DNA of 64,000 bases from Bacteroidota bacterium (GTDB lineage Bacteria > Bacteroidota > Bacteroidia > Palsa-965). The position numbers and the translations under genes are program-made. The DNA is taken from assembly GCA_006218065.1 (NCBI GenBank), contig VBWE01000014.1, positions 70,364 to 134,363 of the forward strand, read 5' to 3'. Of this stretch, positions 450 to 46,604 are shown one piece after another. Below the pieces are notes generated by a model that made no database searches, had not been told where the DNA came from, and worked only from the letters and a program-made list of their open reading frames with translations. Position 1 is the stretch's first letter, and every line of letters begins with the position of its first letter.

Positions 450-700
450 GTCCATGACTCACCCCCCGGCCCCCTCTCTCCGCCTTTGGAGTAAGCAGTA
501 CAAAAAAAGTATGTGTTGCGCCAAAGGCACAAAGAGGGGGAGTCTATATATATTTATTAGCGTCGAAGACGCTAATAAATATAAGTCCGCATACTCTTCA
601 GTAAGGCACCCCCTCTTTGCGTCTTCGACGCAAAAGGAACTTCCCGTTTCTCCGGTCCCGTCGAAGGCGGAGAGAGGGGGCCGGGGGGTGAGTCATGGAC
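450..700. mobile_element. REPIN/MITE-like element, copy 1 (GACTCACCCCCCGGCCCCCTCTCTCCG family)
   Basis: Perfect 37-bp terminal inverted repeat 450-486/664-700; inner CAAAGAGGGGG/CCCCCTCTTTG pair; central 16-bp stem TATATTTATTAGCGTC-GAA-GACGCTAATAAATATA (549-583). Confidence 0.9.
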
Positions 701-12208: not shown

Positions 12209-12395
12209 GTCCGGGGACTCACCCCCCGGCCCCCTCTCTCCGACGTTGTAAGCTTTGTTTAAACGAGAGTCGAATTTGCGACAACGTCGCAAAGAGGGGG
12301 AGCCACAACTTAAGTTACTGGAACTAAAACGACCCGGCCTTGCAAAATAGATTAACAAAGCCGGAGAGAGGGGGCCGGGGGGTGAGTCCCCGGAC
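12209..12395. mobile_element. REPIN/MITE-like element, copy 2 (internally deleted)
   Basis: Perfect 34-bp TIR 12209-12242/12362-12395; inner CGACGTTGT/ACAACGTCG stem followed by CAAAGAGGGGG. Confidence 0.9.
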
Positions 12396-37369: not shown

Positions 37370-39373
37370 ATGGCAAAGAAGACGGAAAAAAAGAAAAGCA
37401 AAGCCGCATCACCCGGGCTGAGCGGATACCTGAAAAAGCATGTTTTTATCGTCGCACTCGTTGTGCTGGTCGGCATCGTTTTCGGGAACACGCTTTCGAA
37501 CGGGTACGCGCTCGATGACGATTACTATACGAACGGCGGCACGTCGCAAACCGCGCAAAATATCCGCAAAGGTTTTTCGGGCATTCCGAAACTGCTGACC
37601 ACGCTGACCTTCCAGGGAAGAGAAGGAGAAGGTTACGCATACCGCCCGGTGGTGGCGATTTCATTTGCCATCGAACATGCGCTTTTCGGTGAAAGTGCGA
37701 AAGCCAGTCACTTCATCAGCCTGCTTTTATATGCGCTCACGGTCGTGGTGCTTTTCCTTCTACTGAAGCGCTGGTTCCCGGCGCAGGGCGAATGGTTCGT
37801 GTTTTTCGTCTGCCTGCTTTTTCTCGTTCACCCGCTGCATACCGAAGTGGTAAACAATATCAAAAGCCGGGATGAACTGCTGGCTATGCTGGGCGCGCTG
37901 GGTTGTTTCTATTTCGCGTGGCGGCATATCGAAACGGGTCGCTGGTACTACCTGCTGCTTTACCCGCTTTGTTTCCTGCTCGGTATGTTTTCCAAACGCA
38001 CGATCATTCCGTATTACGTATTGTTCCCGATGGCGCTCTGGTTTTTCAGCAAACAGAACTGGAAAAAAATCGCGCTGTACATGGTTCCGCTGATTATCGT
38101 CGCAGCCATTTCAGCCCTTGCACAGCAACAGCTTCTGCCGCAGCAGCAAAGAGAATACCTTTTGCTGGAAAATCCGTTTCCCACGGGACACTATGGTATT
38201 GCTGCAAAAACAGCGACCTCGGCCTACATTCTCGGGCGTTATCTCTGGCTGCATATTATTCCGCACCCGCTCGTGTATTATTACGGGTTCCGTCACGTGC
38301 CGGTCGTGGACTGGTCGAATATCATCGCGATTGCGGGATTGCTCGTGCATGTTTTTCTCGGCGTGGTGGCTTTGCTCGGGTTACGGAAACGCAGCCTGCT
38401 TTCGTTCGCCATCCTGTTTTATCTTGTCAACATGGCTGCCTACTCGAACCTGCTGCAGCCCGCTCCGGGTATGATGGCGGAACGTTTTACCTATTCGGCC
38501 ACCATCGGTTTTTGCATCGCCATAACCTGGCTTGTTTTTAAACTGCTGAAAACAGAACCGCAAAATTTTGCCTGGGGAGAAACCAATACGGTGCGGATCG
38601 TGCTGCTGGGTATTGCAGGTCTTTTTGCCATGCGCAGCTTTGTGCGAAACGGCGACTGGGAAAGTAAAATAACCCTGTACGGCAACGACATGGAATACCT
38701 CGAAGAATCGGCCAAAGCGAATATGATGCTCGGCCAGCTTTATTTATACGACGGTATCCAGAAGAACAACCAGCAGGAACTGGAGCTTGCGCGGAAAAAT
38801 TTTCAGAAAGCCGTGGAGATTACGCCCGGTTATTCCATCGCGTGGAACGATCTCGGCACCGCTTCGTTTTTCCTCGGAGAATACAGCGCCGCCGCGAAGG
38901 AATTCGGAAAAAGTCTTGCGCTGGATCCGAAAAACGTGAACACGGTGTACAGTATGGGCCTTTCGCTTTACAAGATGCAGCAGTTGGATTCTGCGCTTCC
39001 GTATTTTCAGCGGACGCTCCGGCTCGACTCCATGCAGATGCGCGCCTGGGAATACGTAGCCCGGATCACATCCGAAAAAGGAAATCCCGACGAAGCGCTC
39101 CGCATACTCGAACGCGCCGCGAAAACCGATCCGAAAAACGAACTGCCGTATGAAGTCATGGCCAGTATCCACATGAAGGATAAAAAAGACACCGTGATGG
39201 CCATCGCGCTGTATGAAAAATCATTGCAGATGAACCCGCGAAACCTGCAGCGCATCGGTGGACTGGCCGAGTATTTCAAGCAAAAAGGCAATACGGAAAA
39301 ACTGCAATACTACAGCGATATGTATATGCGCATCAAACAGGAGATGGAAACTGCTGCGCAGCAAAAAAAATGA
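37370..39373 (+). CDS. TMTC-like membrane glycosyltransferase with C-terminal TPRs
   Basis: YALDD; YRP; HPLHTEVVNNIKSRDE; AERFTY; RNGDW; several TPRs. Confidence 0.85.
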   Translation: MAKKTEKKKSKAASPGLSGYLKKHVFIVALVVLVGIVFGNTLSNGYALDDDYYTNGGTSQTAQNIRKGFSGIPKLLTTLTFQGREGEGYAYRPVVAISFAIEHALFGESAKASHFISLLLYALTVVVLFLLLKRWFPAQGEWFVFFVCLLFLVHPLHTEVVNNIKSRDELLAMLGALGCFYFAWRHIETGRWYYLLLYPLCFLLGMFSKRTIIPYYVLFPMALWFFSKQNWKKIALYMVPLIIVAAISALAQQQLLPQQQREYLLLENPFPTGHYGIAAKTATSAYILGRYLWLHIIPHPLVYYYGFRHVPVVDWSNIIAIAGLLVHVFLGVVALLGLRKRSLLSFAILFYLVNMAAYSNLLQPAPGMMAERFTYSATIGFCIAITWLVFKLLKTEPQNFAWGETNTVRIVLLGIAGLFAMRSFVRNGDWESKITLYGNDMEYLEESAKANMMLGQLYLYDGIQKNNQQELELARKNFQKAVEITPGYSIAWNDLGTASFFLGEYSAAAKEFGKSLALDPKNVNTVYSMGLSLYKMQQLDSALPYFQRTLRLDSMQMRAWEYVARITSEKGNPDEALRILERAAKTDPKNELPYEVMASIHMKDKKDTVMAIALYEKSLQMNPRNLQRIGGLAEYFKQKGNTEKLQYYSDMYMRIKQEMETAAQQKK

Positions 39374-39482
39374 TTTGAAAATGAACCGATTTGAAAATTT
39401 GAAAATGCGCACATATCAACACACGCAGTCATCTTCTCTCCCGATAGCTATCGGGACAAATTGATTCATTTTCAAATCGGAT
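39372..39482. repeat. ATTTGAAAATG-family MITE-like element containing palindrome TCCCGATAGCTATCGGGA
   Basis: Homologous to the reverse complement of 44968-45064 and 51281-51377; palindrome at 39439-39456. Confidence 0.85.
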
Positions 39483-39507
39483 CAAATTCTTAGTCCGTAC
39501 TATAATT

Positions 39508-39978
39508 ATGGGTATCGAAATCGAGCGCAAATTTTTAGTGAAAGACGAGAGCTGGAAACAGGCTTTGTCCGAACCCGGAAAACCGTACCGGCAGGGTTAT
39601 ATGCTCAGCGACAATCGCCGCACCGTTCGCGTGCGCACCGCGGGGGATAAAGGATTCATCACCATCAAAGGAAAAGGAAAGGGATTGCGCCGCCCGGAAT
39701 TTGAATACGAGATTCCGCTGGAAGATGCGAAAGAATTGCTGGCGCTTTGCGATGAAACGATCATCGTAAAAAAGCGGCACCTCGTGCAGCATGAAGCGCA
39801 TACGTGGGAAGTGGACGTTTTCGAAGGCGACAATGCCGGGCTGATCGTTGCGGAAATCGAATTGTCGCACGAAGATGAAACATTCGCCGTTCCCGATTGG
39901 GCCGGTGAAGAAGTGACTTTTGACGGCCGGTATTCCAACGCCAGTTTGTCGCGGCGGCCGTGGAGTAAGTGGAATTGA
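39508..39978 (+). CDS. CYTH-domain protein
   Basis: EIERKFLV; RVR; EFEYEIP; WEVDVF; VAEIEL; YSN. Confidence 0.93.
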   Translation: MGIEIERKFLVKDESWKQALSEPGKPYRQGYMLSDNRRTVRVRTAGDKGFITIKGKGKGLRRPEFEYEIPLEDAKELLALCDETIIVKKRHLVQHEAHTWEVDVFEGDNAGLIVAEIELSHEDETFAVPDWAGEEVTFDGRYSNASLSRRPWSKWN

Positions 39979-40225
39979 CTCACCCCCCGGCCCCCTCTCT
40001 CCGGCTTTGTTAATCCGCTTTACAAGGCTGGGTCGTTTTAATACAAAGCCGCAAAGAGGGGGTGTCGTAAAACTGTAAAACCTGCGTCTTTGACGCAGGT
40101 TTTACAGTAGTTCCTTTTACTATAAGTTGTGGCTCCCCCTCTTTGTGACGTTGTCGCAAACCGACTTTCGTTTAAACAAAACACACAACGTCGGAGAGAG
40201 GGGGCCGGGGGGTGAGTCCCCGGAC
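39977..40225. mobile_element. REPIN/MITE-like element, copy 3 (full length, inverted relative to copy 2)
   Basis: 27-bp TIR 39977-40003/40192-40218; each arm has an inner stem plus CAAAGAGGGGG; central ACTGTAAAACCTGCGTC-TTT-GACGCAGGTTTTACAGT stem. Confidence 0.9.
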
Positions 40226-40232
40226 AACCGAC

Positions 40233-41108
40233 TCAATTCTTATACAACGAATCAATATCCTGCCGCAAATACTTGCGCACGGCCAGCGCGGTGCATATCC
40301 ACGCGATGAAAATACCGAGTACGGTAACCAGCCCGTAAAGGATAGCCAGTGTTTTCAGGTCGGTGATGCCGATGAAGTGGAAATCGGGAACGTGGTCGAG
40401 CCCGTAGATAATTCCGCTGATGAGCGCGATGGCTACAATGGCGCCGAAAATGCCGTTGCGGATCCCGCTCAGTACGAAAGGCCGCCGGATAAAGCCCTGC
40501 GTGGCGCCCACCAGGTTCATGGTGCGGATCAGGAAACGTTTCGAATAAATGGCCAGGCGAATCGTATTGTTGATCAGGCCGATGGAAATCAGCAGGAGCA
40601 GTCCGCTGAAAATCAAAATGCCGATGGTGATCTGGTTAATGTTTTCGTTCATGGCGCTCACCATGCTTTTTTGGTAATACACATCCTTTACCTGCGTATC
40701 CTCGCGCAATTCCTTTTCGATCCAGGCAATGCTGTCGTTATTCGCGTATGCGGCCCTGAGCGAGATTTCGATGGAAGGCTGGAGCGGGTTGAAGCCGAGC
40801 GTTTTGATGAAATCCTCGCCGAGGTCTTCCTGCAGTTTCTTCGCCGCTTCCTCTTTCGAAACGTAAACCGTGGCGCGGCGATAGGGTGAAGCGTCGATGG
40901 ATTTCTGCAGGGCGATGATGTCGGCGTCTTTCGCAGTCTCGTCCAGGAAAACGGTTACCGTGATATTTTCCTTCACATAATCCGAAACCGATTTCGCTTT
41001 CAGTACCACCAGGCTGGTAATGCCAAGCAGGGTAAGCACCAGCGCAATGCTGATGACGATGGTGAGGGCGGAGGAGCGAATACTTAAACGGCTGTATTTT
41101 TCCGACAC
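40233..41108 (-). CDS. ftsX: Cell division permease FtsX
   Basis: VISIALVL.LLG; YVSKEEAA; LGFNPL; INNTIRLAIYSKRFLIRTMNLVGAT..FIRRPF. Confidence 0.95.
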   Translation of the reverse strand: MSEKYSRLSIRSSALTIVISIALVLTLLGITSLVVLKAKSVSDYVKENITVTVFLDETAKDADIIALQKSIDASPYRRATVYVSKEEAAKKLQEDLGEDFIKTLGFNPLQPSIEISLRAAYANNDSIAWIEKELREDTQVKDVYYQKSMVSAMNENINQITIGILIFSGLLLLISIGLINNTIRLAIYSKRFLIRTMNLVGATQGFIRRPFVLSGIRNGIFGAIVAIALISGIIYGLDHVPDFHFIGITDLKTLAILYGLVTVLGIFIAWICTALAVRKYLRQDIDSLYKN

Positions 41109-41251
41109 GGCTGATGCTGTTAATTAGCGAAATTAGATAATCGGCCTTTGCCGGCTCCCGGATTTTCGCCAAGATGCTGACAAGCGGATTGTTGAAAACC
41201 CCGGATTTTTAAGTCCGGACCAGCGGGAGCGGAAGTTCCTGCTATGATTAG

Positions 41252-41334
41252 CCGATTTGAAAATGGAGCCAATTTGAAAATGCACACAGGCAAGTGCGCA
41301 TGGCATCTTCAAATTGGCTCCATTTTCAAATTGG
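41252..41334. repeat. ATTTGAAAATG-family element (variant) between divergent ftsX and leuS
   Basis: Perfect 24-bp IR 41255-41278/41308-41331. Confidence 0.85.
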
Positions 41335-41406
41335 TCCATCGGTAAATCAGCCATAAAATCGGGAATTCCGTACCTTCGATCTCCCTTTAACAGCGTCAGG
41401 AAATTT

Positions 41407-44400
41407 ATGGAATACAATTTTTCAGAGATCGAAAAAAAATGGCAGAAAGCCTGGAAGGATAACCAAACCTACCGGGTAACGGATGGCGGAAGCAAACCGA
41501 AATACTACGTGCTCGACATGTTTCCCTATCCTTCGGGAGCGGGTTTGCACGTGGGGCATCCGCTCGGGTATATCGCTTCGGATATTTTTTCGCGTTACAA
41601 GCGCCTTAAAGGATTCAATGTGCTGCACCCGATGGGTTTCGACGCTTTCGGTTTGCCTGCCGAGCAGTATGCCATTCAAACCGGCCGCCATCCTGCGGAT
41701 ACGACCAAAGAAAATATCGCGCGCTACCGCGAACAACTGGATAAAATCGGTTTCAGTTTCGACTGGAGTCGTGAAGTGCGTACCTGTGAACCGGAATATT
41801 ACCGGTGGACGCAGTGGGTTTTCCTGCAGCTTTTCAAATCCTGGTACAATTGCAAAACGCAGAAAGCCGAATCCCTCGATACGCTGATCGCGGTTTTCGA
41901 AAAAGAAGGGTTTAAAGGTGAAGCGCACCAGGTGCTCACCGGCGATATCGAACATGATCTTGCACCGTTTACCGCGGAAGAGTGGAAGAATTTTTCGGAG
42001 AAGGAAAAATCCGATGTGCTGATGAATTTCCGGCTGGCTTATCTCGGTGAAGCCTGGGTGAACTGGTGCCCGGGATTGGGTACCGTGCTGGCCAACGACG
42101 AAGTGAAGGACGGCGTTTCCGAACGCGGCGGTTATCCCGTGGAGCGCAAACGCATGCCGCAGTGGAGCCTGCGTATCACGGCTTACGCCGATCGCCTGCT
42201 GAATGATCTGAACGGTATCGACTGGTCCGACAGTATCAAGGAAGCCCAGCGCAACTGGATCGGGCGGAGTGAAGGGACTTCGATTTTTTTCAGACTGGAA
42301 AATCACGATGCGGCCGTGGAAGTTTTCACCACGCGACCGGATACGGTTTTCGGCGTTTCGTTCGTTACGCTGGCGCCGGAGCATGAACTGGTGGCGAAAA
42401 TCACGACGGCGGAATACAAAGCGGCCGTGGATGCCTACGTGAATACCGCGAAAAACAAATCGGAACGTGAGCGGCAGGCGGATGTGAAAAACGTGAGCGG
42501 ACAATTTACCGGCGCGTATGTGATCCACCCGTTCACTGCGAAAAAAGTCCCGGTCTGGATCGGCGAATATGTCCTGGCCGGCTACGGAACCGGCGCGGTA
42601 ATGGCCGTTCCCGCCCACGACTCGCGCGATTTTGCTTTTGCTTCGCACTTCGGTTTGGAAAAACCGCAGGTGATCCAGCCGCCCGCAGCATGGAATTTTG
42701 AAAAAGAATCTTTCGACGAAAAAGAAGGCGTCTGCATCAATTCCGATTTCCTGGACGGGCTGGAAGTGAAAGCGGCCATCCGCAAAGCGATCGAAGAAAT
42801 TGAGAAACGTGGCCTGGGAAAAGGCAAGATCAATTTCCGCCTCCGCGACGCCGCTTTCGGCCGCCAGCGTTACTGGGGAGAACCTATTCCGATTTATTAT
42901 AAACCTGCCGTCAGTTCGAGCGCAGTCGAGAACACGGCGGACCTTATTCCTGTTCCACTTGACGAATCGGAACTCCCGCTCATCCTGCCGGAAGTGGATA
43001 AATTTTTACCGACGGAAACCGGTGAGCCGCCATTGGCGCGAGCGCGGGGGTGGGCATACAGACCACACCCCCTTCCCCTCTCCGAGGGAGGGGGGAGCGA
43101 TGCTTTCACCTTCGGTGAAGGCTATACTCCTCGCTTTTTTACGACTTCGCCCGAGAAGTGGAAACTTTTGAAAGAGTGGGCGAGGGCGCACCGGAAGGCG
43201 GCTACGCCGGCCGAAGATCTGCTTTGGCAGGAATTGCGTGGCAAGAAAACCGGTTTCCAGATTCGCAGGCAGCATGCGATCGATGTTTTTATCGTGGACT
43301 TTGTTTGCCTTTCCAGAAAACTGGTGATTGAAGTGGACGGCGGGTATCACAACGATCCCGGGCAGCAGGAATATGATGCACAACGGACGCTCGTACTGAA
43401 CGAACTTGGTTTTAAAGTTATGCGTTTCACGAACGAACAGGTTTTGCAGCGTACCAGCGAAACGGTGAATGAAATAGCAAACACCCTGCGAACCACCGTC
43501 CTCCCTGAAGGGGAGGAAAGAGGTGGGGTCGCTTACCCATATGAAACCACCACCATGCCCGGCTGGGCCGGATCGAGCTGGTATTTTTTACGCTACATGG
43601 ATCCGCATAATGAAAACGAATTTGTTTCGCGCGAAAAAGCGGATTACTGGCAGAACGTGGATTTGTATTTAGGCGGCGCCGAACATGCTACCGGGCATTT
43701 GCTGTATGTGCGTTTCTGGACGAAGTTTTTGTACGATATCGGGAAGATTGGTGTGCAGGAACCGGCGAAGAAGTTGATTAACCAGGGGATGATACAGGGG
43801 ATGTCTGAAAAAATTAAGATTAAACAATCAATTTTCTCAGGAACAACAACTACATCCGATGCTCATCCGGTTGCTTCATCCAAATCGTTTCTGATGCCGC
43901 AAGAAATGGAAGGATTAAATAGCACTACAGTGACTTTACCTATTGATTCAAAACAGGTTTTTGTCAGCGCTGAAATAGAAGATTCCAAGGATGAGTTGAT
44001 GACGTTCTTCAATTATGTTCCAATACAATTATCCAAAAATTCGAAGTTGGAGATAGATAAGTATCTCGAATGGAATCACAAGGAACGAAATAATGATATT
44101 TCCTCCGCTGTTTTTTTGATCAAAAATTTTTATTGGTTTAAAGGTAATTGGTATGACTATTCGATGAATGTTATATCCAATACGAGTAATCTTGCTTTCT
44201 TGACAAAATCAGAAGTTGAAAAAATGTCGAAGTCAAAACTCAATGTAGAGACTCCCGACGATATCTGCGATCAATACGGCGCCGATACTTTACGCATGTA
44301 CGAAATGTTCCTCGGTCCCATCGACCAGGCCAAACCCTGGAATACGAACGGCATTACCGGCGTTCACGGATTCCTGCGTCGTTTCTGGCGTTTGTTTCAT

Positions 44401-44904
44401 GATGATAAAAACGGGTTTGCAGTAAACGAAGAAGCCGCCACCAAAGCCGAACTGAAAGTGCTGCATAAAACGATCAAAAAAATCGGCGAGGATGTCGAAC
44501 GTTTTTCATTCAATACCGGTGTGAGCAGTTTCATGATCGCCTGCAACGAACTCACGGAACTGAAATGCCGCAAGCGCAGTATCCTCGAACCGCTGGTGAT
44601 CGCGCTTTCGCCTTTCGCCCCGCATATCGCGGAAGAACTCTGGGAAAAACTCGGGCATACCGGCAGCGTGAACTTCGCGCAGTTCCCGGTTTACGATGAA
44701 CAGTACCTCACCGAAGACAGTTTCGAATACCCGGTGCAGGTAAACGGAAAACTGCGTTTCAAATACAGCGTGGCCTTAGGTTTAAATCCGCAGCAGATCG
44801 AAAAAGAAGTGATGGGCAGCGAAGAAGTGCAGAAATGGCTCGACGGAAAAACGCCGAAAAAAGTGATCGTGGTCCCGAATAAGATCGTGAATATCGTCGT
44901 TTAA
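41407..44904 (+). CDS. leuS: Leucine--tRNA ligase with in-frame insertions
   Basis: MFPYPSGAGLHVGH (HIGH); FTTRPDT and GTGAVMAVPAHD editing domain; KMSKS; QVNGKLR C-terminus. Confidence 0.97.
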   Translation: MEYNFSEIEKKWQKAWKDNQTYRVTDGGSKPKYYVLDMFPYPSGAGLHVGHPLGYIASDIFSRYKRLKGFNVLHPMGFDAFGLPAEQYAIQTGRHPADTTKENIARYREQLDKIGFSFDWSREVRTCEPEYYRWTQWVFLQLFKSWYNCKTQKAESLDTLIAVFEKEGFKGEAHQVLTGDIEHDLAPFTAEEWKNFSEKEKSDVLMNFRLAYLGEAWVNWCPGLGTVLANDEVKDGVSERGGYPVERKRMPQWSLRITAYADRLLNDLNGIDWSDSIKEAQRNWIGRSEGTSIFFRLENHDAAVEVFTTRPDTVFGVSFVTLAPEHELVAKITTAEYKAAVDAYVNTAKNKSERERQADVKNVSGQFTGAYVIHPFTAKKVPVWIGEYVLAGYGTGAVMAVPAHDSRDFAFASHFGLEKPQVIQPPAAWNFEKESFDEKEGVCINSDFLDGLEVKAAIRKAIEEIEKRGLGKGKINFRLRDAAFGRQRYWGEPIPIYYKPAVSSSAVENTADLIPVPLDESELPLILPEVDKFLPTETGEPPLARARGWAYRPHPLPLSEGGGSDAFTFGEGYTPRFFTTSPEKWKLLKEWARAHRKAATPAEDLLWQELRGKKTGFQIRRQHAIDVFIVDFVCLSRKLVIEVDGGYHNDPGQQEYDAQRTLVLNELGFKVMRFTNEQVLQRTSETVNEIANTLRTTVLPEGEERGGVAYPYETTTMPGWAGSSWYFLRYMDPHNENEFVSREKADYWQNVDLYLGGAEHATGHLLYVRFWTKFLYDIGKIGVQEPAKKLINQGMIQGMSEKIKIKQSIFSGTTTTSDAHPVASSKSFLMPQEMEGLNSTTVTLPIDSKQVFVSAEIEDSKDELMTFFNYVPIQLSKNSKLEIDKYLEWNHKERNNDISSAVFLIKNFYWFKGNWYDYSMNVISNTSNLAFLTKSEVEKMSKSKLNVETPDDICDQYGADTLRMYEMFLGPIDQAKPWNTNGITGVHGFLRRFWRLFHDDKNGFAVNEEAATKAELKVLHKTIKKIGEDVERFSFNTGVSSFMIACNELTELKCRKRSILEPLVIALSPFAPHIAEELWEKLGHTGSVNFAQFPVYDEQYLTEDSFEYPVQVNGKLRFKYSVALGLNPQQIEKEVMGSEEVQKWLDGKTPKKVIVVPNKIVNIVV
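42910..42933 (+). repeat. REP-like 24-mer inside leuS, translated as VSSSAVEN
   Basis: GTCAGTTCGAGCGCAGTCGAGAAC resembles the reverse complement of intergenic copies at 3196 and 6511; starts on a codon boundary. Confidence 0.75.
43060..43530 (+). mobile_element. DUF559 (Vsr-like PD-(D/E)XK) endonuclease cassette with inverted hairpin arms, in frame in leuS
   Basis: AR..RK..TPAEDLLWQELR...IRRQHAI..FIVDFVC...LVIEVDGGYH...YD..RT..L...GFKVMRFTNEQV; imperfect TIR 43061-43095/43496-43530; flanks GCATAC/GCTTAC. Confidence 0.85.
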
Positions 44905-44967
44905 GTACCGCTTACTCCTCAACGTATTTTTAAACGTAAGTCACGGAACTTCGGAGTGTCCGTATTT

Positions 44968-45064
44968 CAATTTGAAAATGAATCAATTTGAAAATTGAGA
45001 AGATGGTTGCGCGCGCGGACATGTGCGCATTTTCAAATTTTCAAATCGGTTCATTTTCAAATTG
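44968..45064. repeat. ATTTGAAAATG-family MITE-like element
   Basis: CAATTTGAAAATGAATCAATTTGAAAATT...AATTTTCAAATCGGTTCATTTTCAAATTG. Confidence 0.85.
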
Positions 45065-45104
45065 CACCGAAAAGCCGTACTTTTCATAGGCAAATTCCCG
45101 ACCC

Positions 45105-46604
45105 ATGAAAAAATTCTACGTACTTCTCATTTTCCTACTTCCCGTTTCCATCCTTCCCGCCCAGCAATACCGTTGCTTCCAGCAGAGTGATACGACCTGG
45201 TATGAATATCACACCGGGATGACACAGATGTTCCAGGCGATTCATATCGACTCGGTTGCGGCCCTGTCGGGAGATTCCGCTTTTTACAATTATAAAGTCG
45301 CGATCGGCAGTCCGGCGAATTCCACCTGCTTTACAATGGACGACACGACCTGGATGGGAGCGCCGTCTGTTCGCAGGGTAAACGGGAACGAAATTTTTTA
45401 CAACGATAATGGCGACAGTATTGTGATCAAACCGCAGGCTGCCATGGGAAATTCCTGGCGGTTACTCGAACTGGGCGGCGGCAATTATCTTGAAGCGACA
45501 GTCAGCGGCATTGCTTCGCAGAGCGTGCTGAATCAAACCGGCAATGTGAAAACGATTACGATCCAGGCGAAAGATATTTCCAACATGCCCATGGCACATA
45601 TGTTCAACGGTAAAACCATACAGGTCAGCGAAGACTACGGCTTTGTGCGTATTTATCACCTGCGTTATTTTCCGGGAGATACGTCAGCATACACAATTGC
45701 CGGGAAAACGGGCATGACCGGCGTTGCGCACCAGGTTACGGCGGCTGATATTTTCGATTTCAATATCGGGGAACAATTCGATTACCACGGCCATGAACGC
45801 ACAGGCATGCCGCCGAACCAGTTTGTTTTTGATCTGTACACGACCAACGTACTTACTGCCAAACAGGTGAACGGAAATTCCATCACCTACACCTGGAGCC
45901 AGACGTATTGCAAGAAAATGGGTACAACGATCATCACCAGCTACGCCAACCAGCCGTATGTGGAAACGGTTTACACGGGCCTGCTGGATACTACGGCCTA
46001 TCTCGATAAACTTCCCGAAGAACATGTGTACCCGCTCGATACGGTTACGGGAAATTACATGGACGAATACAGTTTCTTTTTCTACCAGCCGGCTGTTTAC
46101 AACGGACGCCTGCAGCGCAATTACGGCCGTATCTGGCCTTATGGTTACGCAGGTCAGCAATGCTGGTCGGGATCGACGGTTTCTTTCGGCCCCTGCGACA
46201 ATATCCAGCAGAATTACGTGGTTGGCCTGGGCCTGGCTTTTACCGGCGCGAGCCCGTTTTATTGCAATGATAACCGGCTGGTTTACTTCCAGAAAGGCAT
46301 CGAAACCTGGGGAACACCCAACGACTGGCCGCTGATTCTCGGCGAAAAAGACCTGTCTCTTTCCCAAAATACCTTAAAACTGTACCCGGTCCCCGCCGAA
46401 GACCAGGTTACCCTGCAAATGCCTTTTGGAACAAACGACCGTACAATCCGTCTCTACGACGCTGCGGGGCGGCTGCTGGATGTAACAAACTGGCCTTCAG
46501 GATCGTTAACAAGGCAGTTAAACGTGGCCCATTTACCAGCGGGCGTTTACCGGGTGGCCGTGGATGGTCCGGAAGGGCGTTCAAATGCTATGCTGGTAAG
46601 GTAA
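45105..46604 (+). CDS. Secreted protein with T9SS type A CTD
   Basis: Signal peptide; LYPVPA...LYDAAGR...LPAGVY CTD. Confidence 0.85.
   Translation: MKKFYVLLIFLLPVSILPAQQYRCFQQSDTTWYEYHTGMTQMFQAIHIDSVAALSGDSAFYNYKVAIGSPANSTCFTMDDTTWMGAPSVRRVNGNEIFYNDNGDSIVIKPQAAMGNSWRLLELGGGNYLEATVSGIASQSVLNQTGNVKTITIQAKDISNMPMAHMFNGKTIQVSEDYGFVRIYHLRYFPGDTSAYTIAGKTGMTGVAHQVTAADIFDFNIGEQFDYHGHERTGMPPNQFVFDLYTTNVLTAKQVNGNSITYTWSQTYCKKMGTTIITSYANQPYVETVYTGLLDTTAYLDKLPEEHVYPLDTVTGNYMDEYSFFFYQPAVYNGRLQRNYGRIWPYGYAGQQCWSGSTVSFGPCDNIQQNYVVGLGLAFTGASPFYCNDNRLVYFQKGIETWGTPNDWPLILGEKDLSLSQNTLKLYPVPAEDQVTLQMPFGTNDRTIRLYDAAGRLLDVTNWPSGSLTRQLNVAHLPAGVYRVAVDGPEGRSNAMLVR

What the first reader, a model, noticed from the sequence alone, without database searches (positions are those of the whole stretch)
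43054..43536. Hairpin-flanked DUF559 endonuclease cassette inserted in frame in leuS: candidate autonomous member of a DUF559-REP mobile system
Seen: 157 extra codons (43060-43530) interrupt LeuRS between ...PLARARGWAY and AYPYETTTMPGWAGSSW. The core is a complete DUF559/Vsr-like nuclease domain (TPAE, RRQH, IVDF, IEVDGGYH, MRFTN). Its ends are an imperfect inverted repeat (24/35 ungapped matches by my alignment). Each end forms a hairpin: CCACACCCCCTTCCCCTCTCC-GAG-GGAGGGGGGAG on the left and TCCTCCC-TGAAG-GGGAGGAAAGAGGTGGGG on the right. Both are translated (PHPLPLSEGGG, LPEGEERGGV). The flanks GCATAC/GCTTAC (both AY) look like a 6-bp target duplication with one synonymous change. The left arm resembles the arms of three non-coding elements at 450, 12209 and 39977. 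Known: DUF559 is a PD-(D/E)XK nuclease-like family of unclear role, and RAYT/REPIN is an established nuclease-plus-palindrome system. Inference: DUF559 plays the RAYT-like role for this repeat family and persists as a non-spliced passenger domain in an essential enzyme.
Basis: partly seen in the sequence, partly recalled or inferred. Interest (0 to 1): 0.85.

Follow-up and report, generated by a model that had tools for sequence, protein, structure and literature searches.

The report
Mobile nuclease cassette inside leuS
The only leucyl-tRNA synthetase gene of this groundwater Bacteroidota genome carries, in frame and apparently unspliced, a small selfish DNA element that encodes a DUF559 nuclease between hairpin-forming inverted ends, one of a large and seemingly undescribed family that settles in conserved spots of housekeeping genes.

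Summary
leuS carries a 470-bp cassette (43061-43530). It is a full DUF559 (Vsr-like) nuclease domain between about 35-bp inverted ends, each a 9-nt tail, a spacer and a GC hairpin. Twenty-two relatives, including the same-genus genome, have 3 to 45 nt at this spot. The proposed 6-bp target duplication is not real.

The cassette belongs to a large Bacteroidota family. In an even sample of 121 genomes, 28 of 145 DUF559 copies lie in open frames of 400 aa or more. The same sites recur in LeuRS (two sites), IleRS, RecG, ValRS and others. Hairpins flank most copies. The same DNA hairpin is read in different frames, so it is a DNA-level feature.

Insert and host trees disagree, so inserts move between alleles. 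The leuS ends match a roughly 125-bp MITE family: 41 ends in this genome, none in 40 relatives, 2 in 400 other Bacteroidota.

Best reading: a selfish nuclease-plus-hairpin element living unspliced inside essential genes, with non-coding derivatives. Nuclease activity, and its role as the driver, are inferred and not shown. I found no description in print.

The parts
41407..44904 (+). leuS (leucyl-tRNA synthetase), 1165 aa including the insert; the only leuS found in the genome
   Evidence: ORF and translation. Pfam tRNA-synt_1, tRNA-synt_1_2 and Anticodon_1. The LeuRS query found only this locus in G000, plus the two other DUF559 copies.
43061..43530 (+). The mobile cassette, from inverted-repeat tip to tip (GACCACACC ... 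GGTGGGGTC), 470 bp, read in frame with leuS
   Evidence: Inverted repeat. Boundaries by comparison with 22 empty alleles and with family-B MITE ends.
43061..43095 (+). Left end: tail GACCACACC (43061-43069), spacer, hairpin CCCCTCTCC-GAG-GGAGGGGGG (43075-43095); translated as PHPLPLSEGGG
   Evidence: Sequence, fold. Match to the family-B end consensus scores 17, 0 of 1000 shuffles.
43168..43488 (+). DUF559 / Vsr-like PD-(D/E)XK nuclease domain (TPAE, RRQH, IVDF, IEVDGGYH, RFTN)
   Evidence: Pfam PF04480 E=2e-32. Solved relative 3hrl_A E=2.2e-22. All 19 invariant columns kept.
43499..43530 (+). Right end: hairpin TCCTCCC-TGAAG-GGGAGGA (43499-43517), spacer AAGA, tail GGTGGGGTC (43522-43530); translated as VLPEGEERGGV
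   Evidence: Sequence, fold. 21 of 21 identical to a family-B MITE end at C21:61223-61243; 43 of 45 identical to a solo end at C43:32547-32591. Counted among the 41 family-B ends.
42908..42937 (+). Second, small in-frame insert in leuS (part of 12 extra codons, PAVSSSAVENTA): a 30-mer of another dispersed repeat
   Evidence: The upstream region of G000 is 36 nt longer than in 28 of the 29 other alleles compared (L038 is also longer). The 30-mer recurs in at least 15 places of the genome at 92-100% identity.
457..693 (.). Family-A MITE-like element (convergent pair of units ACTCACCCCCCGGCCCCCTCTCTCCG...CGCAAAGAGGGGG); built on the same plan, link to the leuS cassette indirect
12217..12387 (.). 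Family-A MITE-like element
39978..40217 (.). Family-A MITE-like element

Best explanation
The insert is a compact selfish mobile element. It is one gene-sized DUF559 (Vsr-like PD-(D/E)XK) nuclease domain bounded by about 35-bp terminal inverted repeats. Each repeat consists of a 9-nt tail ((G)CCTCACC-type; here GACCACACC), a short spacer and a C-rich/G-rich hairpin.

It sits in a length-variable surface loop of LeuRS, in frame and free of stops. The cell therefore makes one long LeuRS with the nuclease as an extra domain, joined by Pro/Gly-rich linkers that are simply the translated hairpins. Nothing removes it: there is no intein and no intron.

It belongs to a large Bacteroidota family that occupies the same conserved spots of housekeeping genes again and again (LeuRS at two sites, IleRS, ValRS, RecG, MeaB-like GTPase, MetH and others). 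The family also occurs free-standing between genes. It decays to hairpin-only footprints and has short non-coding derivatives (MITEs) with the same ends.

Shown: the anatomy, the family-wide hairpin ends, DNA-level conservation of the hairpins, recurrent sites, patchy occupancy, insert/host tree conflict, purifying selection on the domain, and a private MITE family with matching ends.

Inferred: the nuclease, expressed as part of the host protein, cuts DNA either at the element's own hairpin ends or at empty target sites. Repair from an occupied copy then spreads the element (homing between alleles). Action on the shared ends also moves the MITEs. An essential gene is a safe harbour because any imprecise loss is lethal.
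For: Domain and ends.

Empty alleles: 22 of 30 leuS loci compared lack the insert, including same-genus G001 with 9 nt at the site; 8 are occupied at the same site.

Sole leuS: the occupied allele is the only leuS match in G000, G007, G014, G017, G019 and G023, which are 97-100% complete.

Second copy: a DUF559 copy sits in frame in ileS of the same genome. None of the 39 relatives with an IleRS match has it. Six distant Bacteroidota carry one at exactly that site.

Breadth: 76 of the best 150 relatives among 1.84 billion proteins are longer than 250 aa with the domain inside. Their hosts span 78 Pfam families. 58 of 80 genome loci lie in open frames of 400 aa or more. 28 of 145 DUF559 matches, in 19 of 121 evenly drawn Bacteroidota genomes, do so too.

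Hairpins: stems of 7 bp or more at 61 of 78 left and 56 of 78 right ends, against 39 of 305 control windows. The two ends of one element share their loop in 19 of 62 cases, against 5.5% across elements.

DNA-level feature: the same hairpin CCTCTCC-N3-6-GGAGAGG is read in two codon phases on the left (11 and 10) and in three on the right (3, 9 and 2).

Mobility: occupancy needs at least 3 changes on the host tree. G023 and G019 hosts are 87% identical but their inserts only 55%. AU tests reject congruence at p=0.0004, 0.010 and 8e-23.

Selection: insert pN is far below pS, omega 0.09-0.26, like the host.

Decay products: hairpin-only footprints at the leuS site in G002 and in ileS of G000 at a site that carries a full cassette in P0055.

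MITE link: the family-B end motif has 41 hits in G000, one of them the leuS right end. It has 0 hits in 40 relatives and 2 hits in 1 of 400 other Bacteroidota; the reversed control gives 0. The tail-plus-arm motif lies within 100 nt of 9 of the 39 DUF559 places in relatives and is otherwise about one per Mb.

Outside support: a published screen found 'DUF559 domain-containing protein' enriched 14-fold among genes bracketed by inverted repeats (PMC9881135, passage read).
Against: No cleavage, binding or transposition has been shown for any DUF559 protein that I could find.

No target-site duplication or common target motif was seen, so the insertion chemistry is unknown.

The ends of this particular copy are only 71% complementary, and the left hairpin has a mismatch, so this copy may be past its active life.

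Family B could be moved by another enzyme. The draft genome breaks at repeats and could hide one, and two RAYT-like genes exist.

Of the 22 relatives without a DUF559 match, 5 still carry the end motif. Four of those are 62-89% complete; one is complete and has a single copy.

Purifying selection could reflect only the need for a well-folded, harmless insert in an essential protein. dS is near saturation.

The groups in the AU tests were named after the trees were seen. Relatives are not independent samples.

No RNA or protein data exist for this organism, so translation through the insert is inferred from the open frame and from the absence of any splicing signature.
Confidence: 0.72

Rival explanations
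1. DUF559 is a passenger, not the driver. The hairpin-ended repeats are moved by some other enzyme (a RAYT-type Y1 transposase or an unassembled IS transposase), and the DUF559 gene is cargo carried between two such ends.
For: G000 has two RAYT-like genes (27.8 and 27.0 bits, cut-off 23). Five relatives carry the end motif without a detectable DUF559. G010 has 8 family-A ends and no DUF559 match, but is 62% complete. The assembly breaks in repeats: about 20 of 28 solo family-A ends lie near contig ends.
Against: Each RAYT-like gene lies beside its own, different palindrome family (71 and 48 arm hits). None of families A, B or C lies within 1.5 kb of them. No transposase-like ORF lies beside the 8 solo family-B ends examined. 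Across more than 100 loci in many genera the hairpin ends travel with DUF559, inside genes and outside. The domain keeps all invariant residues and is under purifying selection.
Confidence: 0.15
2. A pure homing endonuclease with protein-level linkers. The element spreads only by cutting empty alleles, and the hairpins exist because Pro/Gly-rich linkers (CCN/GGN codons) happen to be complementary. The inverted ends would have no DNA-level role and the MITE match would be coincidental.
For: Same-site recurrence with patchy distribution and insert/host incongruence are the classic homing pattern. A Vsr-like homing endonuclease family is known (I-Bth0305I; cited in PMC3424549). No target duplication was found.
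Against: The identical DNA hairpin is translated in two or three different phases. Free-standing copies have the same hairpins in non-coding flanks. The two ends of one element share loop and tail variants. Forty further ends of the same type sit at unrelated intergenic places in G000. Hosts span 78 Pfam families, which is too many for one recognition site.
Confidence: 0.08
3. A domesticated or functional fusion: LeuRS and the other hosts recruited DUF559 as a working accessory domain, inherited vertically.
For: The domain is conserved and under purifying selection. The occupied allele is the only leuS in six genomes. Some long hosts are restriction enzymes (Type_ISP_C in 5, Eco57I in 2 of 76), where a nuclease fusion could be functional.
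Against: Occupancy is patchy within one genus, with 6 of the 16 g3 leuS loci compared occupied and the same-genus G001 empty. Insert and host histories conflict. Hosts are functionally unrelated. Inverted hairpin ends and hairpin-only footprints are hallmarks of insertion, not of fusion.
Confidence: 0.03
4. The insert is removed before the enzyme works, by protein splicing, RNA splicing or ribosomal bypass.
For: GC hairpins at both borders recall the bypassed 'byp' inserts of yeast mitochondria and T4 gene 60 (recalled, not looked up).
Against: There is no Hint/intein domain in Pfam and no Cys/Ser/Thr at the downstream junction (Y or A). No intron family appears in Rfam at E up to 1. The frame is open and continuous with the host on both sides in every embedded copy, which removal would not require.
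Confidence: 0.02

Closest known systems
REPIN / RAYT systems (REP doublets with a single-copy Y1 HUH transposase)
   Same: A nuclease gene is flanked by short hairpin repeats. The same hairpins are dispersed in tens of copies, often as convergent pairs, and are private to a genome lineage. G000 itself has two such RAYT-like genes with their own palindromes, for comparison.
   Different: The enzyme is a Vsr-like PD-(D/E)XK domain, not an HUH tyrosine transposase. The cassette has true inverted ends. It lives in frame inside essential genes and recurs at the same sites in different lineages.
Inteins carrying homing endonucleases
   Same: In-frame residence in conserved motifs of essential genes, patchy distribution, same-site recurrence, and an insert history that differs from the host's.
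   Different: There is no Hint splicing domain or junction nucleophiles. The insert stays in the mature protein. It has inverted hairpin ends and MITE derivatives.
I-Bth0305I / EDxHD family of Vsr-like homing endonucleases (Taylor 2011, as cited in PMC3424549 and PMC9403480; passages read)
   Same: The same superfamily clade (VSR, DUF559, DUF2726) is already linked to homing.
   Different: Those enzymes sit in group I introns, inteins or free-standing. An unspliced in-frame life with hairpin ends is not reported. By sequence the closest solved structure here is 3hrl, not 3r3p.
Rickettsia palindromic elements and intragenic REPs (as described in PMC3733652; passages read)
   Same: Short palindromic repeats inserted in frame in functional genes. 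This matches the hairpin-only footprints in ileS of G000 and leuS of G002, and the 36-nt mini-insert in leuS.
   Different: RPEs and REPs encode nothing. Here a full-length coding form with the same ends exists.
ShiLan insertion in phage methylase genes (PMC11855218; abstract read)
   Same: A homing insertion that leaves the host frame open and has no splicing domain.
   Different: Its HNH endonuclease is read in another frame with its own start. It is found in phages, and no hairpin inverted ends or MITEs are reported in the abstract.
IS200/IS605 and bacterial MITEs
   Same: Small size, hairpins near the ends, no target duplication (IS200/IS605), and non-coding derivatives that share the ends.
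   Different: No HUH or DDE transposase. The ends are inverted, whereas IS200/IS605 ends are not. The coding form is an in-frame protein domain.

Membership tests
Pfam DUF559 (PF04480), Vsr-like PD-(D/E)XK clade | Profile match above the curated cut-off over the whole domain | tested here: met
   111.7 bits against a cut-off of 20.6, profile positions 3-108 of 109. 3hrl_A E=2.2e-22.
Pfam DUF559 (PF04480), Vsr-like PD-(D/E)XK clade | Conserved core residues (T..E...W, RRQH, D-F, E-x-D-G..H, D..R, RF.N) | tested here: met
   All 19 invariant columns of alignment A2 are present in the window's copy; 11 invariant columns in the 76-row alignment A1.
Pfam DUF559 (PF04480), Vsr-like PD-(D/E)XK clade | Nuclease activity | not testable with these tools
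   No assay was possible, and no paper with DUF559 in title or abstract was found among 25 that mention it.
Intein | Hint splicing domain and junction nucleophiles (Cys/Ser/Thr at +1, terminal His-Asn) | tested here: not met
   No Hint family in Pfam at E up to 0.01. The junctions read ...WAY|RPHP and GGVA|YPYE, and the other alleles likewise.
Group I / group II intron | Ribozyme structure | tested here: not met
   No intron family in Rfam at E up to 1 over 39000-45500. The insert is an open, conserved protein-coding frame.
Homing endonuclease element | Same site occupied in some lineages and empty in close relatives | tested here: met
   8 occupied and 22 unoccupied leuS alleles at one site. 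The ileS site is occupied in G000 and in 6 distant genomes, and empty in 39 relatives.
Homing endonuclease element | Insert phylogeny differs from host phylogeny | tested here: met
   AU p=0.0004, 0.010 and 8e-23, with groups named after the trees were seen.
Homing endonuclease element | Enzyme cleaves the empty target site | not testable with these tools
   Needs a biochemical assay.
MITE / autonomous-element pair | Non-coding short elements share terminal inverted repeats with a coding element in the same genome | tested here: met
   Family B has 41 ends including the leuS right end. End consensus against the leuS ends scores 17 and 18, 0 of 1000 shuffles. Private to G000 among 441 genomes, apart from 2 one-mismatch hits in G231.
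MITE / autonomous-element pair | Target-site duplication | tested here: not met
   None seen at the leuS site, at 22 elements with clear tips, or by eye at 15 family-B copies.
REPIN / RAYT | Associated enzyme is a Y1 HUH transposase | tested here: not met
   The cassette encodes DUF559 only. The genome's two Y1_Tnp genes lie elsewhere with other palindromes.
REPIN / RAYT | Hairpin repeats in convergent pairs, tens of copies, flanking a nuclease gene that is present in few copies | tested here: met
   Family A: 58 ends, 15 complete pairs, two units flanking the free-standing DUF559 on C63. Family B pairs.

The most novel reading that the evidence does not exclude
DUF559 is the sole protein of a new class of prokaryotic mobile element, in which a Vsr-like PD-(D/E)XK nuclease recognises tail-plus-hairpin inverted ends. 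The element can live as an unspliced, translated domain inside essential genes (an 'intein lifestyle without splicing'), with stop-free pyrimidine/purine hairpin arms that tolerate any reading frame. It seeds genome-private MITE families. This would give the large orphan family DUF559 (22,478 hits at E<=0.001 among cluster representatives) its first function, and would make domain insertion into aaRS, RecG and similar proteins a by-product of parasitism.
Probability: 0.45. Interest if true: 0.9.

Novelty: new variant of a known kind. Interest (0 to 1): 0.85.

Why it matters
DUF559 is a very large family with no assigned role. The data give it a concrete, testable role: the nuclease of a hairpin-ended selfish element.

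The element shows a way for a parasite to persist in essential genes without inventing splicing. It stays in frame, sits in a tolerant loop, and carries ends that contain no stop in any frame.

About one Bacteroidota genome in six in an even sample has a housekeeping protein enlarged in this way (19 of 121). This affects gene annotation, protein-length outliers and the structural biology of aaRS, RecG and MetH. It also offers natural experiments in domain insertion.

If the nuclease recognises a tail-plus-hairpin structure, it is a candidate structure-specific DNA tool.

The pairing of a coding cassette with a genome-private MITE family gives a clean system to test mobilisation.

Tried and rejected
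Target-site duplication was rejected.

Family A as the partner of the leuS cassette is weak, and family B fits better. The ileS cassette ends have no repeat family in G000.

Rfam over 39000-45500 gave only sub-threshold microRNA-like hairpin hits at 41247-41339 and 44967-45065, and no intron or known RNA.

I looked for another transposase beside solo family-B ends and saw none. This was judged by eye from ORF lists; those ORFs were not scanned against Pfam.

The RAYT rival was checked with PF01797.

Expression: no RNA holder was listed for this stretch, so nothing can be said about transcripts. The laid runs are contigs only. A joint skipping 43037-43579 in run X4 comes from a contig only about 87% like the flanks, so it belongs to another organism, and it is not used.

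dN/dS: dS is near saturation, and two pairs could not be computed.

The first hairpin census of the genome used a faulty pattern and undercounted. It was redone.

Structure prediction, fold search, complex prediction, the protein atlas, the search for homologous proteins and the listing of cluster members were not used. The fold is set by sequence homology to 3hrl, and no binding claim is made.

Literature: eight searches found no description of DUF559 as a mobile in-frame element. The library lacks most subscription journals, and supplements were not open. The supplementary lists of PMC9881135 (inversion targets) and PMC3733652 (intragenic REPs) may bear on this and were not seen.

Full report
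WHAT IS THERE. The window holds one long open frame, 41314-44904. From the ATG at 41407 it encodes a 1165-aa leucyl-tRNA synthetase, with Pfam tRNA-synt_1, the LeuRS editing domain and Anticodon_1. Inside it, residues 619-725 of the frame (nt 43168-43488) match Pfam DUF559 at 107 bits. The excised stretch 43054-43536 scores 111.7 bits (E=2.1e-32; cut-off 20.6), covering profile positions 3-108 of 109. The nearest solved structure is 3hrl_A, an 'endonuclease-like protein' of 104 aa (E=2.2e-22). The ends of the insert form an imperfect inverted repeat: 43061-43091 against 43500-43530, 31 nt, 71% complementary. Each end folds into a GC hairpin.

THE EMPTY SITE. I searched 41 related genomes with the LeuRS segment around the insert and compared the 30 best loci. 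Eight are occupied at exactly this site: G000, six genomes of a sister genus, and one of another family. Twenty-two are not. The same-genus genome G001 reads ...ARAKDWKY-NGQ-YDYEWTTMPGW. The loop between W-x-Y and Y/P-x-E varies from 1 to 12 codons in 21 of the empty alleles, so it is a tolerant, variable loop. The target-duplication claim therefore fails. One 'empty' allele (G002) has 45 nt at the site that are a tail plus a C-rich/G-rich hairpin and nothing else (TPPPLTPPLGGGEPAS). This is a hairpin-only footprint.

The occupied allele is the only LeuRS match in G000 (99.98% complete) and in five other carriers, so the cell must live on the enlarged enzyme. Contigs from a second metagenome sample cover both junctions without a difference, so the arrangement is not an assembly artefact.

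A SECOND AND A THIRD COPY IN THE SAME GENOME. A tblastn search of the insert against the laid genome finds three copies. One is the leuS insert. The second (48% identical) lies in frame inside ileS on contig C78, between ...HYPFENKDAIKSPYMA and FPADFIAEGVDQTRGW, again with GC hairpins at both ends. None of the 39 relatives with an IleRS match has it; all align to residues 1-494 and 641-800 of the query. The third is a free-standing 145-codon ORF on C63 with a family-A repeat unit on either side. The ileS gene also carries a hairpin-plus-tail footprint in frame (TEPLPLSAGEGAGGEV) in the variable loop before LAWTTTPWTLPSN. A metagenomic IleRS (P0055) carries a full DUF559 at that very place.

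THE FAMILY. A search of the 157-aa insert against 1.84 billion cluster representatives gave 22,478 hits at E<=0.001. Of the best 150, 76 are longer than 250 aa with the domain inside. All 76 hit DUF559, and together they hit 78 Pfam families. These include class I tRNA synthetases (9), the LeuRS editing domain (6), glycosyltransferase 2 (6), Type ISP restriction enzymes (5), chorismate synthase (3), DegT aminotransferases (3), MetH, FGAM synthase and others.

Of the 80 best loci kept, 79 are labelled as Bacteroidota lineages. Fifty-eight of the 80 lie in open frames of 400 aa or more, at recurrent places:
- LeuRS site 2 (RNWIGxSxG..F | VFTTRxDT): 15
- RecG (between DEQHRFGV and MTATPIPRT): 7
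- IleRS (the G000 site): 6
- LeuRS site 1 (the window's site): 5
- MeaB-like P-loop: 3
- a GNNGLGL protein: 3
- ValRS-like: 2
- UDP-GlcNAc 2-epimerase-like: 2
- MetH-like: 2
- IspF-like: 2
- other hosts: 14
- short open frames: 19
(The two IspF-like loci have open frames under 400 aa and LeuRS site 2 includes one of 320 aa, so the host rows sum to 61, not 58.)

That sample is biased towards relatives of the query. In an even draw of 121 Bacteroidota genomes at least 90% complete, 60 have DUF559. Of the 145 matches, 28 lie in open frames of 400 aa or more, in 19 genomes (counted by hand from the table).

THE ENDS ARE A DNA FEATURE. In 78 loci with full flanks, a perfect hairpin stem of 7 bp or more lies within 140 nt of the domain at 61 left ends and 56 right ends, and at both ends in 48. 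The figure for control windows of the same loci is 39 of 305. The canonical end is (G)CCTCACC(C/T)-spacer-CCCCTCTCC-loop-GGAGAGGGG, with the mirror image on the other side. The two ends of one element share the reverse-complemented loop in 19 of 62 elements, against 5.5% for ends of different elements.

The same DNA hairpin CCTCTCC-N3-6-GGAGAGG is translated in two codon phases on the left: PSP..ERG in 11 elements and PLS..GEG in 10. On the right it is translated in all three phases (3, 9 and 2). Free-standing copies have the same hairpins in non-coding DNA. The hairpins are therefore conserved as DNA, or as a folded strand, and not as peptides.

Read directly from the sequence: one arm holds only C and T and the other only G and A. 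Neither arm can contain a stop codon in any frame on either strand. This would let such ends sit in a gene in any phase.

IT MOVES. On a tree of the host LeuRS flanks (30 alleles, insert removed), occupancy needs 5 changes by parsimony, and at least 3 are forced by well-supported branches. G023 and G019 have 87% identical hosts but 55% identical inserts, while the G019 insert is 70% identical to those of G007 and G017. The insert tree joins G000+G023+G014 (SH-aLRT 100). The host tree joins G000+G009 and G023+G019 (99). AU tests reject the host groupings on the insert data (p=0.0004 and 0.010) and the insert grouping on the host data (p=8e-23). The groups were named after I had seen the trees.

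The domain is under purifying selection of about the same strength as the host gene (omega 0.09-0.26 against 0.07-0.19), though dS is near saturation.

NON-CODING RELATIVES. There are 15 complete convergent pairs of 161-242 bp, and most other copies lie at contig ends. Family A shares the building plan (tail ACTCACCCC, spacer, C-rich arm), but matches the leuS cassette only modestly.

The real match is a family I call B: elements of about 125 bp with ends GACCYCRCC-TCTT-TCCTCYCC-GAA-GGRGAGGA around a central palindrome. The leuS right end is 21 of 21 identical to one such end. The family-B end consensus aligns to both leuS ends with scores of 17 and 18, reached by 0 of 1000 shuffles. The end motif has 41 hits in G000 (one being the leuS cassette), none in 40 relatives, and at up to 1 mismatch 38 in G000 against 2 (in one genome) among 400 other Bacteroidota. 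A solo right end on C43 is 43 of 45 identical to the leuS end and includes the last 15 nt of the coding linker, as a remnant of a second cassette would.

More generally, the tail-plus-arm motif CTCRCCYY-N2-5-YCCCTCTCC occurs in 18 of 41 genomes, with one control hit in all. It is found in 13 of the 19 genomes with a DUF559 match, and in 5 of the 22 without, four of which are incomplete assemblies. It lies within 100 nt of 9 of the 39 DUF559 places. These genomes are kin, so the counts overstate independence.

CONTROL WITHIN THE GENOME. G000 also has two RAYT-like genes. Each sits beside its own palindrome family (71 and 48 arm hits), unrelated to families A, B and C. So in this one genome each small nuclease gene has its own private hairpin family. 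This is the REPIN/RAYT logic with a different enzyme.

HOW IT MOST LIKELY WORKS. Shown: a compact cassette with inverted hairpin ends and a conserved nuclease domain; residence in frame in tolerant loops next to highly conserved motifs of essential genes; exchange between alleles; decay to footprints; and MITEs with the same ends. Inferred: the nuclease is made as part of the host protein, since there is no separate start and the frame is open on both sides. It cuts either the hairpin or cruciform ends, or empty sites, and recombinational repair copies the element. The many unrelated MITE locations argue that the ends themselves are a substrate. The recurrence at the same sites argues for homing, or for spread by homologous recombination through conserved flanks after gene transfer. 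No target duplication was found, so a DDE-type mechanism is unlikely. This particular copy has degraded ends (71%) but an intact domain.

WHAT IS KNOWN. The Vsr/DUF559 clade includes a homing endonuclease family (PMC3424549 and PMC9403480, passages). In-frame palindromic repeats are known (RPEs, intragenic REPs; PMC3733652, passages). An unspliced in-frame homing insert with an out-of-frame HNH gene was described in phages (PMC11855218, abstract). A large screen found DUF559 proteins 14-fold enriched among genes bracketed by inverted repeats, without interpreting them as mobile (PMC9881135, passage). Eight full-text searches found no description of a hairpin-ended DUF559 element, of its in-frame life in housekeeping genes, or of its MITEs.

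VERDICT. The feature is real and more than chance. The target duplication is wrong, the matching repeat family is a different one, and the enzymatic role remains to be shown.

Noticed in passing
G000 contig C78:74612-75028 (outside the window; locus L020): A second DUF559 cassette sits in frame in ileS of the same genome, 48% identical to the leuS one, with its own hairpins (CCCTTCC-CGGGG-GGAAGGG). None of the 39 relatives with an IleRS match has it. Six distant Bacteroidota carry one at the same site.
   Followed up: yes
G000 contig C78:73313-73345 (locus L020:202-234): A hairpin-plus-tail footprint lies in frame in ileS (TEPLPLSAGEGAGGEV), in a variable loop before LAWTTTPWTLPSN. The G007 loop there also looks hairpin-derived (APLTGVGLGVRS).
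   Followed up: partly
window 42908-42937: leuS has a further small in-frame insert (12 extra codons, PAVSSSAVENTA). Its 30-mer is a dispersed repeat found in at least 15 places in the genome, unrelated to the DUF559 ends.
   Followed up: partly
window about 43807-44230: There is a long stretch of about 140 codons between GMIQG and KMSKS (MSEKIKIKQSIFSGTTTT...). The relatives' matches to the LeuRS query stop at its start. It may be a divergent leucine-specific domain or yet another insert.
   Followed up: no
G000 contig C63:1-900: A free-standing DUF559 ORF (C63:135-539, minus strand) has a family-A repeat unit on each side (33 and 124 nt away), both in the same orientation. The contig ends inside the downstream unit, so the full structure is unknown.
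   Followed up: partly
G000 contigs C24:47568-47819 and C76:34661-34885 (loci L141, L142): Two RAYT-like Y1 transposase genes (HUH motifs MPDHLHII and MPDHFHAIL) each lie next to their own palindrome (GCTAGTCGACGAC-TCA-..., TACGTAGGGGCGATGC-CGA-...). Those palindromes have 71 and 48 arm hits genome-wide.
   Followed up: partly
G000, e.g. C23:3967, C23:45591, C78:53291 (outside the window): A third small repeat, family C: GGTTCGGCCTCACCCCAACCCCTCTCCGGCAGAGAGGGGAATTGGTTCGG, about 11 intergenic solo units. The same 19-mer variant marks the single DUF559 element of G013 and 7 other places in that genome.
   Followed up: partly
G000 contig C78:90318-90347 and 90876-90903: Two direct copies of a unit resembling the leuS left end (93% and 89% over 28-30 nt) bracket a small gene for a secreted-looking 90-aa protein.
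   Followed up: no
window 41247-41339 and 44967-45065: Long hairpins lie just upstream and downstream of leuS. They gave sub-threshold microRNA-like Rfam hits (27-32 bits against gathering scores of 70-211) and are probably further palindromic repeats.
   Followed up: no
protein P0002 (377 aa): The best database relative of the insert has three DUF559 stretches in one protein (284 bits in all), i.e. tandem cassettes or a triple fusion.
   Followed up: no
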